NCBI RefSeq assembly: GCF_009914755.1
Contig: NC_060928.1
DNA: 64,000 nucleotides
From: the human T2T-CHM13v2.0 reference genome, Homo sapiens
Reading direction: 5' to 3' (one strand)
Below, piece after piece: positions 51,251 to 59,409 of the stretch; positions within the stretch are counted from its first letter, which is position 1; the number at the start of each line of letters is the position of its first letter. A model generated the notes under the pieces. The model did no database searches. It saw nothing but the letters and a program-made list of their open reading frames with translations, and was not told the DNA's origin. The translations under genes were made by a program, and so were the position numbers.

Positions 51251-52745
51251 TTTTTATACTTATGGAACTCATTTCAGAAAGGGATGATCCTGTTGGGAAC
51301 TGTAAATAAAATGTGTTGGCAAACTTTGTGAAAGTTATATTTGTAAGTGGCTTCTGAGACAGATGAGAATATAGTCCGCTTTGAAAGATAACCTATGGGA
51401 GGACAAGCAAGACCTTATAGGACATTATTGATTCCTAAATTCTCCAAAGTCTCACCATGACAGAGAGAATAGGCTTTATTAGCATCATTTGAAATGTTTG
51501 TGGTAAGGAGCTTTGCTCTGTAACAGTGGAGGGGCTTTGACTACTCAAAACCCCACTTTTAATGAAGAATGCAAATTGCCAGGGAAATACCTTGTCCCAA
51601 AGACCAGATGAATATTCTAAAATATGGGAAAAGATTGAGATGAGATTGATTACAGAAAGAGGGTTAAAGGAGAGAGCATTTATTAAGGACTCCAGGCCAG
51701 ATTTTTTTTACTTATGTTATCTCATTCCATCCTCTCAATAAAACTTTGAGGAAGGTTTATTGCCCCCAATTTATAGGTGAGGAAATTCAGATTGAGAAAG
51801 CCTCGCCAACTAGCTTTGAACTAGGATTTGCACTCTGAATCACTCGGTTAAGGGAGGGAAATAGATGGAATAATGGAGAAATGGAACCAAGAAGATATTA
51901 GCCAGTGCTGATATTTTAATCTACTTTTCCATTCTTCCCCATGGCCTTTCAAAGCTTTTTATTTTTGACCTTTGTGCTCCAAATCTATAGATGTATAATA
52001 ATTTTGATCTGAGGAAAAAACATGAGTTGGGCTCTAGAGTTATTCTATTTTCTAATAATCCTAAGGGCAAATTCAGATTTGCTTAGTCTTCTGTAAAATG
52101 CTTTTTAGGTGCTCTGTTACTTTGCAAAATCATTTGTCTTATCTCAAATTTTAAATCAAATTTAATATTTTGAATACCTATGATTCGTTATGTTTATATA
52201 TTTTTGAACCATTTGAAGTTTAGAAGAAAAGGTTTTCTTCTAAACATGCGAGGTGTTTTCAGCATAGTTACCTCAATCACGGGACTCATATTTACTTTTC
52301 TGTGACAGGTGGGCCCTTTCAAGCCATCTTGATGATACAGAGATGTCCAGGGGCTGGTTGGATTGTCCAAGATTAAGATTTCTTTGGAATATCAGAAATG
52401 AAAATTGCTAGTGGTTTCTGGTCAAGGACAGAGTAAACAGCTCACACTAAAATCAAGCTACATTGTCTTAGAGTGTAATGGAAGCTATACATAAGAGTAA
52501 TTAAAGCTGCTTTTTCTTAGGAAGTGCCAACAGTGAATCCTATATCTGTGTAGAAAATACTCCCACAGAATAAGCACATTTCAATGTAAAACAAATGATA
52601 GCACACATTTGCACAACATTCTTCAGTTTATAAAATATTTTCTCATAGTGTTCCTCCCTGAGCTTAATAGCAATTCCATCTGGTAGTGTTAGCACGATAG
52701 CCCTCTTAATTCATGAGAAAATGGAGACTTAGAAAGTGTAAGTTA

Positions 52746-53784
52746 AGGGGACAATCGAGCCAAGATGGCCGAATAGGAACAGCTCTGGTCTACAGCTCCC
52801 AGCGTGAGTGACGCAGAAGATGGATGATGTCTGCATTTCCATCTGAGGTACCGGGTTCATCTCACTAGGGAGTGACAGACAGTGGGCACAGAACAGTGGG
52901 TGCAGTGCACCATGCACCAGCTGAAACAGGGTGAGACATTGCCTCACTCAGGAAGTGCAAGGGGTCAGGGAGTTCCCTTTCCTAGTCAAAGAAAGGGGTG
53001 ACAGATGGCACCTGGAAAATTGAGTCACTCCCATCCTAAGACTGCGCTTTTCCAATGGACTTAAAAAAGGTGCACCAGGAGATTATATCCCGCACATGGC
53101 TCAGAGGGTCCTATGCCCATGGAGTCTCACTGATTGCTAGCACAGCAGTCTGAGATCAAACTGCAAGGTGGCAGCGAGGCTGGGGGAGGGGAACCCTCCA
53201 TGGCCCAGGCTTGCTTAGGTAAACAAAGCAGCCGGGAAGCTCCAACTGGATGGAGCCCACCACAGCCCAAGGAGGCCTGCCTGCCTCTGTAGGCTCCACC
53301 TCTGGGGGCAGGGCACAGACAAACAAAAAGACAGCAGTAACCTCTGCAGACTTAAATGTCCCTGTCTGACAGCTTTGAAGAGAGCAGTGGTTCTCCCAGC
53401 ACACAGCTGGAGATCTGAGAACGGGCAGACTGCCTCCTCAAGTGGGTCCCTGACCCCTGACCCCTGAGCAGCCTAACTGGGAGGCAGCCCCCAGTAGGGG
53501 CAGACTGACATCTCACATGGCCGGGTACTCCTCTGAGAGAAAAATTTCAGAGGAATGATCAGACAGCAGCATTCACGGTTCACAACAATCAGCTGTTCTG
53601 CAGCCACCGCTGCTGATACCCAGACAAACAGGGTCTGGAGTGGAACTCTAGCAAACTCCAATAGACCTGCAGCTGAGGGTCCTGTCTGTTAGAAGGAAAA
53701 CTAACAAACAGAAAGGACATCCACACCAAAAACCCATCTGTACATCACCATCATCAAAGACCAAAAGTAGATAAAACCACAAAG
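52746..53784 (+). promoter_or_regulatory. L1 5'UTR internal promoter (YY1 site CAAGATGGCCG at 52761-52771), CpG-eroded
   Basis: Canonical L1PA 5'UTR including the ~129-bp segment absent from L1PA2/L1HS. Confidence 0.85.
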
Positions 53785-54790
53785 ATGGGGAAAAAACAGA
53801 GCAAAAAAACTGGATATTCTAAAAAGCAGAGTGTCTCTCCTCCTCCAAAGGAATGCAGTTCCTCACCAGCAATGGAACAAAGCTGGATGGAGAATGACTT
53901 TGACGAGTTGAGAGAAGAAGGCTTCAGATGATCAAACTACTCTGAGCTACAGGAGGAAATTCAAACCAAAGGCAAAGAAGTTAAAAACTTCGAAAAAAAT
54001 TTAGATGAATGTATAACAAGAATAACCAATACAGAGAAGTGCTTAAAGGAGCTGATGGAGCTGAAAGCCAAGGCTCAAGAACTACATGAAGAATGCAGAA
54101 GCCTCAGGAGCTGATGTGATCAACTGGAAGAAAGGGTATCAGTGATGGAATGAAATGAAGTGAGAAGGGAAGTTTAGAGCAAAAAGAATAAAAAGAAATG
54201 AACAAAGCCTCCAAGAAATATGGGACTATGTGAAAAGACCAAATCTACGTCTGATTGGTGGACCTGAAAGTGACAGGGAGAATGGAACCAAGTTGGAAAA
54301 CACTCTGCAGGATATTATACAGGAGAACTTCTCCAATCTAGCAAGGCAGGCCAACATTCAGATTCAGGAAATACAGAGAATGCCACAAAGATACTCCTCG
54401 AGAAGAGCAACTCCAAGACACATAATTGTCAGATTCACCAAAGTTGAAATGAAGGAAAAAATGTTAAGGGCAGTCAGAGAGAAAGGTTGGGTTACCCTCA
54501 AAGGGAAGCCCATCAGACTAACAGCGGATCTCTTGGCAGAAACTCTACAAGCCAGAAGAGAGTGGGGGCCAATATTCAACATTCTTAAAGAAAAGAATTT
54601 TCAACCCAGAATTTCATATCCAGCCAAACTAAGCTTCATAAGTGAAGGAGAAATAAAATACTTTACAGACAAGCAAATGCTGAGAGATTTGGTCACCACC
54701 AGGCCTGCCTTAGAAGAGCTCCTGAACGAAGCACTAAACATGGAAAGGAACAACCGGTACCAGCCACTGCAAAAACATGCCAAATTGTAA
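53785..54790 (+). pseudogene. L1 ORF1p, disrupted
   Basis: ATGGGGAAAAAACAGAGC start; premature TGA codons and an indel in the coiled coil; intact C-terminal RRM/CTD frame 54230-54790 (RPNLRLIG...YPAKLS). Confidence 0.93.
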
Positions 54791-54853
54791 AGACCATCCA
54801 GGCTAGGAAGAAACTGCATCAACTAATGAGCAAAATAACCAGCTAACATCATA

Positions 54854-58680
<3,827 letters not shown>

Positions 58681-58903
58681 ACAATGAGAACACATGGACA
58701 CAGGAAGGGGAACATCACACTCTGAGGACTGTTGTGGGGTGGGGGGAGGGGGGAGGGATAGCATTAGGCGATATACCTAATATTAAATGACGAGTTAATG
58801 GGTGCAGCACACCAGCATGGCACATGTATACATATGTAACAAACCTGCACATCATGCACATGTACCTTAAAACTTAAAGTATAATAATAATAAAATAAAA
58901 AAA

Positions 58904-59030
58904 GAATAATTTATCCCTACTTAAAGACAGATTGTCCAATATGTAACCACTACATACAAAAAAGTTATAAAATTGTCCTTGGTTTTACAATGATAAATGA
59001 AAAACATTAAAATTCTTTAACTGAACAAAG
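58904..59030 (-). other. 3'-transduced non-L1 sequence resembling SUMO2 3'UTR (antisense to the L1)
   Basis: Lies between two A tracts inside the TSDs (seen). Its reverse complement GAATTTTAATGTTTTTCATTTATCATTGTAAAACCAAGGACAATTTTATAACTTTTTTGTA...CAATCTGTCTTTAAGTAGGGATAAATTA matches my recollection of SUMO2 mRNA 3'UTR (not searched). Confidence 0.8.
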
Positions 59031-59409
59031 AAAAAAAAAAAAGAAAGTGTAAGTTACTTGTCCAAGGTTACTTATTGGATTTAGAATTCAAGTCCTCTGA
59101 ATCCAAATTCAGATCCTCTGAATCCTAAAGGACTCTATCCGCAAATTTATAATCACCTGTGAGATAAAATTTCAGGGTCAGCCTGACTTGTCTCAAAATA
59201 GCACTTCACTGCCCACCCTTGATAATGGTAGCTCTGGTAGCTCTTATTCTGCCATTAAGTTTTGGATGATGTTTATAAAGCACATGCTTCTGTCACTGTA
59301 AGACTTTGGAGAAGGAGATAGTAACAGCCCAGAAAGTCTTGCTTGTCCCCCTAGTTCACTGCTAATTTTCACTTCGGTCCCATGGTTGCTCTCAGATAGC
59401 ATTTCCAAA

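What the first reader, a model, noticed from the sequence alone, without database searches (positions are those of the whole stretch)
58881..59056. Full-length L1PA3/4 carries a 3' transduction that looks like antisense SUMO2 3'UTR
Seen in sequence: after the normal L1 end and first A-rich tail (58881-58903) come 127 bp of non-L1 DNA (58904-59030). These contain ATTAAA at 59006-59011, followed by a second poly(A) (59031-59041), and only then the 3' TSD, which is identical to the 5' TSD at 52731-52745. This is the established signature of L1 read-through 3' transduction. From recall, the reverse complement matches the distal SUMO2 mRNA 3'UTR, where the antisense strand reads TTTT|AGAGTAATTTATCCC, an L1 endonuclease site exactly at the start of the tag. 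Inference: the source L1 sat antisense inside SUMO2 or a SUMO2 processed pseudogene and adopted a cryptic ATTAAA. The tag would then barcode a whole L1 lineage, and transcripts through it would be antisense to SUMO2 mRNA.
Basis: partly seen in the sequence, partly recalled or inferred. Interest (0 to 1): 0.8.

Follow-up and report, generated by a model that had tools for sequence, protein, structure and literature searches.

The report
Old L1 carrying antisense SUMO2 tag
A dead, full-length L1 retrotransposon on chromosome 4 picked up 127 bases of flanking DNA, the antisense strand of a SUMO2 retrocopy's 3'UTR, when it was copied; this is an ordinary, one-off example of a textbook process.

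Summary
A 6158-bp L1 (52746-58903) ends in an A-rich tail. It is followed by 127 non-L1 bases (58904-59030), ATTAAA (59006-59011), a second poly(A) and a perfect 15-bp target-site duplication.

The tag matches the + strand of chr17 at 92%, inside the last exon of an intron-bearing gene on the - strand, and that gene's retrocopies translate to SUMO2.

The tag is an internal piece of that 3'UTR. It starts at a T-run|A L1-endonuclease-type site and ends 16-19 nt after the ATTAAA. This is a classical L1 3' transduction.

The closest relative is not the gene but an intronless SUMO2 retrocopy on chr5 (95%). It shares 7 of the tag's 10 differences from the gene. That site carries no L1 today, so the source element is missing from this assembly.

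The tag does not mark a lineage: only 1 of 38 tag-like places, this one, abuts an L1 end. The L1's reading frames are broken. No evidence bears on antisense regulation of SUMO2.

Verdict: real, correctly read in its core, and ordinary.

The parts
52731..52745 (+). 5' target-site duplication AGAAAGTGTAAGTTA
   Evidence: Identical 15-mer at 59042-59056 (family D8).
52746..58903 (+). Full-length-in-extent L1 (6158 bp). It has a 5'UTR at 52746-53784, ORF1 remnants from the ATG at 53785, ORF2 remnants up to about 58680, a 3'UTR, and an A-rich tail at 58881-58903. The ORFs are broken.
   Evidence: Pfam hits to Transposase_22/Tnp_22_dsRBD, Exo_endo_phos and RVT_1 on ORF fragments. Fragmented ORFs. 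The 5'UTR aligns gap-free at 92-93% to 39 other genomic L1 5'UTRs.
58904..59030 (+). Transduced tag: an internal piece of the SUMO2 3'UTR read on the antisense strand. It most likely comes from the chr5 retrocopy lineage, and its first bases would be the source L1's 3' TSD.
   Evidence: 39 genomic matches. 92% to the chr17 gene copy on the strand opposite the gene. 95% to the chr5 retrocopy, with 7 shared derived changes. The homology continues on both sides of the tag in the parental copies but not in the window.
59006..59011 (+). ATTAAA polyadenylation signal used by the read-through transcript
   Evidence: Read directly. The same hexamer is present in the gene and chr5 copies. The homology ends 16-19 nt downstream of it.
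59031..59041 (+). Second poly(A), the tail of the chimeric L1-plus-tag RNA
   Evidence: Read directly. The parental copies read GGTATGCAAG... at this point instead.
59042..59056 (+). 3' target-site duplication
   Evidence: 15/15 identical to 52731-52745.

Best explanation
This is a classical L1 3' transduction. The proposed sequence of events is as follows.

1. A now-missing source L1 had inserted, antisense, into the 3'UTR of an intronless SUMO2 retrocopy. The surviving empty copy of that retrocopy lies at chr5:69.89 Mb of this assembly (L002). The insertion site was the T-run|AAGAG site, whose bottom strand reads TCTT/AAAA.
2. One transcript of that L1 ran through the element's own weak poly(A) signal and its tail.
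3. That transcript copied 127 nt of flank and was cleaved 16-19 nt after a fortuitous ATTAAA in the antisense 3'UTR.
4. The chimeric RNA was then inserted by target-primed reverse transcription at a TTCT/AA site on chr4, creating the 15-bp TSD.

What is shown: the anatomy, the SUMO2 identity and strand, the boundaries of the tag, the closest relative, and the absence of siblings.

What is inferred: that the source sat in the chr5 copy itself rather than in a lost duplicate of it, and that the L1-filled allele was lost by drift. The chr4 copy is inert today because its ORFs are broken.
For: Anatomy: two A-runs, an ATTAAA 16-19 nt before the second one, and a perfect 15-bp TSD enclosing L1 plus tag. 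[quoted passage not shown]

Identity:
- The tag matches C17:76059294-76059418 on the + strand at 92%.
- SUMO2-like coding exons lie on the - strand at C17:76066255-76066317 and 76072550-76072687, matched exon by exon.
- A retrocopy ORF (L007) matches PDB SUMO2 chains at E 1e-40 over residues 1-71.
- The retrocopies' homology to the chr17 copy stops at an intron boundary (L003 position 2094), while the retrocopies continue into coding sequence.

Boundaries (by eye):
- In 29 of 29 other loci, the sequence left of the tag start is the continuing T-rich 3'UTR.
- In 28 of 29, the 3'UTR continues right of the tag end.
- In the window these positions hold an L1 tail and a poly(A) instead.

Source:
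- L002 is the best non-self match (95%, 119 of 125 columns).
- The tag and L002 each differ from the gene copy at 10 of 125 columns, and 7 of those are the same change.
- The hypergeometric P for 7 or more shared positions is 1.7e-7.
- An ML tree joins them with support 92/62.
- The tag has 3 private changes (2.4%). That agrees with the L1 body's own non-CpG divergence of 2.9% from the majority of its 29 nearest 5'UTR relatives. The 8% distance to the gene copy would be too large for direct derivation.
Against: - No L1 lies beside the tag-homologue in L002 or in any other copy. L002's upstream 3'UTR exists only once at high identity in the assembly. The source element is therefore inferred, not seen.
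- The AU test does not formally reject a tree that holds the tag with the chr17 gene copy (lnL 14.1 lower, p-AU 0.19). Bootstrap support is moderate (92/62), and IQ-TREE flagged the bootstrap as unsettled. Only 125 columns are available.
- One shared change (column 52, G to A) is shared by 14 of 30 copies and carries little weight.
- A much older copy (L034, 68% to the gene region) is drawn to the same clade (88/76). This is probably a long-branch effect.
- No outgroup primate genome could be examined.
Confidence: 0.75

Rival explanations
1. The mechanism is the same 3' transduction, but the source L1 sat antisense in the 3'UTR of the chr17 SUMO2 gene itself rather than in a retrocopy.
For: The gene copy has the same T-run|A site and the same ATTAAA. 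The tag is 92% identical to it. The AU test does not reject grouping the tag with the gene copy (p 0.19).
Against: Seven of the tag's 10 differences from the gene are shared with the chr5 retrocopy. These include two rare doublets (AG to CA at columns 46-47, CC to TT at columns 119-120), each shared with at most 5 of 30 copies. Chance P is 1.7e-7. The gene copy sits on a zero-length branch, identical to the majority of all the copies. The gene has therefore hardly changed, and the tag would need 8% private change, against about 3% for the L1 body. An L1 inside a conserved 3'UTR of an essential gene would probably be selected against (inference).
Confidence: 0.1
2. The mechanism is the same, but the source lay in a duplicate or sister copy of the chr5 retrocopy that has since been deleted. 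On this view L002 is a cousin, not the empty allele.
For: L002 shows an intact, L1-free site. L1s do not excise, so either the filled allele was lost or another copy was the source.
Against: No second L002-like copy exists in the assembly. The distal 165 bp of its 3'UTR match only L002 itself and the chr17 gene. Private changes are symmetric, 3 in the tag and 3 in L002, as expected if both date from the same split. Loss of an unfixed filled allele is the simpler explanation.
Confidence: 0.1
3. The structure is a template-switch chimera. Reverse transcription began on a separate polyadenylated antisense-SUMO2 RNA and jumped to the 3' end of an L1 RNA, with no read-through transcript.
For: L1 reverse transcriptase is known to make chimeric retrocopies by template switching (recalled from the literature, not checked here). 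The end product would also be enclosed by one TSD.
Against: The tag's 5' end would then be the start of an unrelated RNA. Instead it falls exactly at a YYYY/RR endonuclease-type site preceded by a T-run, which is what a source L1's own integration site predicts. The jump would also have to land at the very end of a complete L1 tail. This reading needs two RNAs where one is enough.
Confidence: 0.03
4. There was no transduction. An L1 simply landed next to a pre-existing SUMO2 3'UTR fragment on chr4.
For: SUMO2 retrocopies are numerous: 39 tag matches and 47 protein matches.
Against: The perfect 15-bp TSD lies outside the tag and its poly(A). SUMO2 homology stops exactly at the L1 tail on one side and at the poly(A) on the other. 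The tag is antisense, so the poly(A) that follows it cannot be a retrocopy's own tail.
Confidence: 0.01

Closest known systems
L1 3' transduction (read-through of the weak L1 poly(A) signal). The primary papers, Moran 1999, Goodier 2000 and Pickeral 2000, are cited from the reference list of PMC4859970; I did not read them.
   Same: Every structural hallmark is present: the L1 end plus a first A-run, unique flank, a downstream poly(A) signal, a second poly(A), one TSD pair around everything, and an endonuclease-type target.
   Different: Nothing differs in kind. The particulars are that the flank is the antisense strand of a retrocopy's 3'UTR, the signal is ATTAAA rather than AATAAA, and the source element is absent from the assembly.
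L1 transduction families used to trace progenitors. PMC6425141 was seen in a search listing only; Szak 2003 and Macfarlane 2013 are recalled.
   Same: A unique tag points to a parental locus.
   Different: This is a family of one. 0 of the 37 other tag-like places abuts an L1 end, so the tag traces a single event from a lost progenitor rather than a lineage.
SUMO2 processed pseudogenes
   Same: The tag's parent (L002) is an intronless SUMO2 copy. It has a C-terminal ...QQQTGGVY reading frame, one TGA inside the coding part, and three ~300-bp interspersed-repeat insertions that I recognise as Alu-like.
   Different: The window itself holds no SUMO2 retrocopy. It holds only 127 nt of the 3'UTR, antisense, delivered by an L1 and not by retroposition of SUMO2 mRNA.
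Template-switch chimeric retrocopies such as U6-L1 chimeras (recalled)
   Same: Two unrelated sequences lie within one TSD pair.
   Different: In those chimeras the extra RNA lies 5' of a truncated L1 and in the sense orientation. Here the extra piece lies 3' of a complete L1 tail and begins at an endonuclease-type site.

Membership tests
L1 3' transduction | A complete L1 3' end with its own A-rich tail, followed by non-L1 sequence | tested here: met
   L1 to 58903, tag at 58904-59030. The tag has no similarity to the L1 body. All its genomic matches are SUMO2 3'UTR copies.
L1 3' transduction | A downstream poly(A) signal 10-30 nt before a second poly(A) | tested here: met
   ATTAAA at 59006-59011. 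Homology to the parental copies ends at 59027-59030, and the A-run starts at 59031.
L1 3' transduction | One target-site duplication enclosing L1 plus tag plus second poly(A), at an endonuclease-type site | tested here: met
   15/15 TSD at 52731-52745 and 59042-59056. The bottom strand reads TTCT/AA, which fits the rule quoted in PMC4859970.
L1 3' transduction | The tag is co-linear with a parental locus and begins at the source L1's integration site (the source's 3' TSD) | tested here: met
   The tag is an internal stretch of the 3'UTR in 29 of 29 other loci. It begins right after a T-run, at ...TTTTTTTTTAA|GAG in L002 and ...TTTTGTTTTA|GAG in the gene copy.
L1 3' transduction | A source L1 still lies immediately 5' of the parental sequence (corroborating rather than defining, since source elements are often unfixed and lost) | tested here: inconclusive
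   0 of the 37 other places has an L1 3' end abutting the tag-homologue. The only L1 hits in those loci are a 63-bp match about 580 bp away in L004 and 64-72% internal ORF2 pieces in L009, L017 and L036. The source is absent from this one assembly. Other haplotypes and species were not searchable.
L1 3' transduction | The tag is absent from the L1-free orthologous site in an outgroup | not testable with these tools
   No primate genomes are held. The 5' flank (52300-52745) is unique in the assembly, so there is no paralogous empty site either.
SUMO2 3'UTR, antisense | Significant similarity to the 3' terminal exon of the intron-bearing SUMO2 gene, on the opposite strand | tested here: met
   92% over 125 nt, E 1e-43, on the + strand of C17. 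The coding exons are on the - strand. The name SUMO2 comes from PDB matches of a retrocopy ORF. SUMO3-type hits lie separately on C21 (the assignment to SUMO3 is my recall).
L1PA3/L1PA4 subfamily | Subfamily-diagnostic positions, and presence of the 129-bp 5'UTR segment lost within L1PA3 | tested here: inconclusive
   The 5'UTR is 1039 bp, which equals the recalled 910 bp of young L1s plus 129 bp. The 129-bp facts come from PMC7110667 and PMC5860796 (passages). No repeat library or deleted comparator was aligned, and diagnostic positions were not tested.

The most novel reading that the evidence does not exclude
If the degenerate L1 promoter, or any upstream transcript, still drives RNA through 58904-59030, that RNA would carry a 62-nt perfect and 125-nt 92% complement of the strongly conserved distal SUMO2 3'UTR. 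It could then pair with SUMO2 mRNA as a trans-acting natural antisense. A milder novel reading is that the chr4 copy is the only surviving record of an extinct progenitor L1 whose filled allele at the chr5 retrocopy may persist in another ape through lineage sorting.
Probability: 0.03. Interest if true: 0.5.

Novelty: new member of a known kind. Interest (0 to 1): 0.12.

Why it matters
It matters little beyond bookkeeping. It is a clean, fully resolved example of L1 3' transduction in which the tag can be traced to a specific parental sequence, a chr5 SUMO2 retrocopy, even though the progenitor L1 itself has vanished. This illustrates that source elements of old subfamilies were often never fixed. 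It also cautions annotators that this 127-bp SUMO2-like patch is neither a SUMO2 pseudogene fragment nor a regulatory element in its own right. Nothing points to an effect on SUMO2 or on neighbouring genes; none lies within 100 kb upstream according to the table supplied.

Tried and rejected
1. Search for tagged sibling L1s.
- The tag was searched against the whole assembly. This gave 39 matches at 38 places, with all 38 first-look candidates scored.
- An L1 3'-end query of 603 bp was run against 30 loci, and the whole L1 against all 38 loci.
- No place other than the window itself has an L1 end abutting the tag.

2. Search for a second copy of the chr5 retrocopy that might hold the source L1. 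The upstream 236 bp of L002 found only L002 itself at high identity and the chr17 gene at 88%.

3. Search for a paralogous empty site for the chr4 target. The 5' flank is unique in the assembly.

4. AU test to exclude the chr17 gene as the source. It was not significant (p 0.19), so the gene is disfavoured but not formally excluded.

5. Naming the L1 subfamily. No repeat library is available. Only the length argument and divergence counts could be made.

7. Literature.
- A search for SUMO2 + LINE-1 + transduction + pseudogene returned 2 papers, both off-topic by their titles and abstracts.
- Pickeral 2000 (PMC310862) is not held.
- Szak 2003 was not found.
- Genome-wide transduction catalogues and their supplements, which might already list this element, could therefore not be seen.

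8. I considered and rejected two readings: an L1 landing beside a pre-existing SUMO2 fragment (the TSD lies outside the tag), and a template-switch chimera (the tag starts at an endonuclease-type site after a complete L1 tail).

Full report
**Observation**

Direct reading confirms every coordinate in the finding.
- An L1 begins at 52746 (…GGGGACAATCGAGCCAAGATGGCCGAATAGG…) and ends in an A-rich tail at 58881-58903.
- From 58904 to 59030 lie 127 bases that are not L1.
- ATTAAA sits at 59006-59011, and an A-run follows at 59031-59041.
- The 15-mer AGAAAGTGTAAGTTA at 59042-59056 repeats 52731-52745 exactly. It is family D8, the only exact 15-mer pair that brackets the element.
- The reconstructed target reads …GACTT|AGAAAG…, so the nicked bottom strand is TTCT/AAGT. 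This fits the YYYY/RR form of the L1 endonuclease site given in PMC4859970 (passages read).

**The L1 itself**

The element is 6158 bp long. ORF fragments hit the Pfam L1 ORF1 domains (Transposase_22, Tnp_22_dsRBD), the endonuclease family and RVT_1.

It is not intact. The longest ATG-started frames are 136, 210, 121, 256 and 368 aa. ORF1, whose ATG is at 53785, has an in-frame stop after about 50 codons and a later frameshift.

The 5'UTR is 1039 bp. L1PA4 and early L1PA3 carry a 129-bp ZNF93-binding segment that later L1PA3, L1PA2 and L1HS lost (PMC7110667 and PMC5860796, passages). 1039 bp is the young-L1 length I recall (about 910 bp) plus 129 bp.

The 39 best other genomic 5'UTR matches are 92-93% identical and gap-free (only 40 of 6942 first-look candidates were scored). 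Against the majority state of the 29 fetched relatives, the element differs at 46 of 892 columns (5.2%). Of these, 20 are CpG-type, leaving 2.9% non-CpG. The relatives' own median is 3.0%.

'L1PA3/4' is therefore plausible but not proven, because no repeat library was available.

**What the 127 bp are**

A search of the whole assembly found 39 matches at 38 places, and all 38 first-look candidates were scored. The top matches were:
- the window itself
- C5:69889987-69890111 at 95% (L002)
- C17:76059294-76059418 on the + strand at 92% (L003)

The remaining places, at 91-75% identity, are spread over many chromosomes.

The flanks of these places identify them as SUMO2 copies.
- In L007 an intronless 126-aa frame matches PDB chains named Small ubiquitin-related modifier 2, at E about 1e-40 over residues 1-71.
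- The first 71 residues of that frame, searched against the genome, hit chr17 exon by exon on the - strand. Residues 7-52 match at 76072550-76072687 and residues 50-70 at 76066255-76066317.
- Retrocopies, in contrast, match contiguously.
- Homology between the retrocopies and the chr17 copy stops at L003 position 2094, while the retrocopies run on into coding sequence. That position marks an intron.

So chr17 holds the parent gene on the - strand, and the tag is its antisense.

**Boundaries of the tag**

I printed all 30 loci in the tag's orientation.
- In 29 of 29 other loci the 3'UTR continues to the left of the tag's first base (…CTAGGATTCTTTTTTGTTTTA|GAGTAATTTATCCC…).
- In 28 of 29 it continues to the right of the tag's last base (…GAACAAGGTATGCAAG…). 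The exception, L028, is a truncated copy.
- In the window these positions hold an L1 tail and a poly(A).

The tag is thus an internal 3'UTR piece. It is cut on the left at a T-run|A site and on the right 16-19 nt after an ATTAAA that pre-exists in the antisense 3'UTR. This is exactly what read-through from an L1 integrated at that T-run predicts. [quoted passage not shown]

**Which copy was the source**

Over 125 aligned columns, the tag and L002 each differ from the gene copy at 10 positions. Seven of these are the same change, at columns 38, 46, 47, 52, 119, 120 and 123. The tag and L002 differ from each other at 6 positions.
- The two doublets, AG to CA and CC to TT, are each shared with at most 5 of 30 copies.
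- Column 52 is shared by 14 of 30 copies and is weak evidence.
- The hypergeometric chance of 7 or more coincident positions is 1.7e-7.
- An ML tree of 31 rows joins the tag and L002 with support 92/62. The gene copy sits on a zero-length branch.

Against this, the AU test does not reject a tree holding the tag with the gene copy (lnL 14.1 lower, p 0.19). IQ-TREE warned that the bootstrap had not settled. A very old copy (L034, 68% to the gene region) is pulled to the same clade at 88/76.

An independent consistency argument favours L002. The tag's 3 private changes (2.4%) match the L1 body's non-CpG divergence of 2.9%. Direct descent from the unchanged gene would require 8%.

**What L002 is**

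L002 is an intronless SUMO2 retrocopy on the - strand.
- It matches contiguously over residues 3-69 with one TGA.
- It has a C-terminal frame ending …QQQTGGVY.
- It is interrupted by three ~300-bp interspersed repeats that I recognise as Alu-like.
- It derives from a long 3'UTR isoform. Its distal 165 bp match only itself and the chr17 gene among the 18 hits.

Its putative integration site, …TTTTTTTTTAA|GAGTAATTT (bottom strand TCTT/AAAA), is intact and free of L1.

**No lineage**

With a 603-bp L1 3'-end query, only the window's own locus has an L1 end abutting the tag, out of 30 loci. The one other hit is a 63-bp, 81% match in L004, about 580 bp from the tag.

With the whole L1 against all 38 loci, the only other hits are 64-72% internal ORF2 fragments in L009, L017 and L036. 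None ends at the tag.

So 1 of 38 places is tagged. The source L1 is absent from this assembly, and no second L002-like copy exists. The simplest reading is that the L1-filled allele at the chr5 retrocopy was never fixed.

**Rivals**

| Rival reading | My odds | Main point |
|---|---|---|
| Source in the chr17 gene | about 0.1 | Disfavoured by the shared changes; not formally excluded |
| Source in a lost duplicate of the chr5 copy | about 0.1 | No second L002-like copy in the assembly |
| Template-switch chimera | about 0.03 | Does not explain why the tag begins at an endonuclease-type site directly after a complete L1 tail |
| L1 landing beside a pre-existing SUMO2 fragment | about 0.01 | Contradicted by the TSD lying outside the tag and its poly(A) |

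**Function**

Nothing suggests a function. The element's frames are broken, and the supplied table lists no gene within 100 kb upstream. The tag offers a 62-nt perfect antisense run to the SUMO2 3'UTR, but expression could not be examined. Antisense regulation remains pure speculation (about 3%).

**Comparison and novelty**

3' transduction is a textbook property of L1. PMC4859970 describes it (passages). One recent abstract puts transductions at about 25% of insertions in tumours (PMC13009371, search listing only).

This element is an ordinary new instance. Its particulars are an antisense retrocopy-3'UTR tag, an ATTAAA signal, a missing progenitor and no siblings.

I found no paper on this specific element. 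The search returned 2 papers, both off-topic by title and abstract. However, the older genome-wide catalogues were not available to me, and their supplements may list it.

**Verdict**

The core interpretation is supported, while the 'lineage barcode' and functional extensions are not. Interest is low.

Noticed in passing
L003 (G000:C17:76059294-76059418 and flanks): The chr17 SUMO2 gene copy of this 3'UTR stretch is identical to the majority state of 30 copies of very different ages, and it sits on a zero-length branch in the tree. The distal SUMO2 3'UTR has therefore hardly changed over the time span sampled by its retrocopies, which points to strong constraint.
   Followed up: partly
L002 (G000:C5:69889751-69891730): This SUMO2 retrocopy extends about 165 bp beyond the 3' end shared by the other retrocopies. 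In that stretch it matches only the chr17 gene. It therefore came from a longer, distally polyadenylated SUMO2 mRNA isoform. It has also received three ~300-bp Alu-like insertions.
   Followed up: partly
window 59085-59126: A 21-bp tandem duplication (AATTCAAGTCCTCTGAATCCA / AATTCAGATCCTCTGAATCCT, 86%) lies just 3' of the insertion site (family D5).
   Followed up: no
G000:C21:43169330-43174379: A second intron-bearing SUMO2-like locus is matched exon by exon on chr21, at 96% over residues 7-52. I presume it is the SUMO3 gene (name recalled). It has no match to the tag.
   Followed up: no
window 52746-53200: The first ~450 bp of the L1 5'UTR are not among the masked stretches listed in the supplied table (the list shows masking from 53201). 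The tag's first 13 bases (to 58916), by contrast, are included in the masked L1 block.
   Followed up: no
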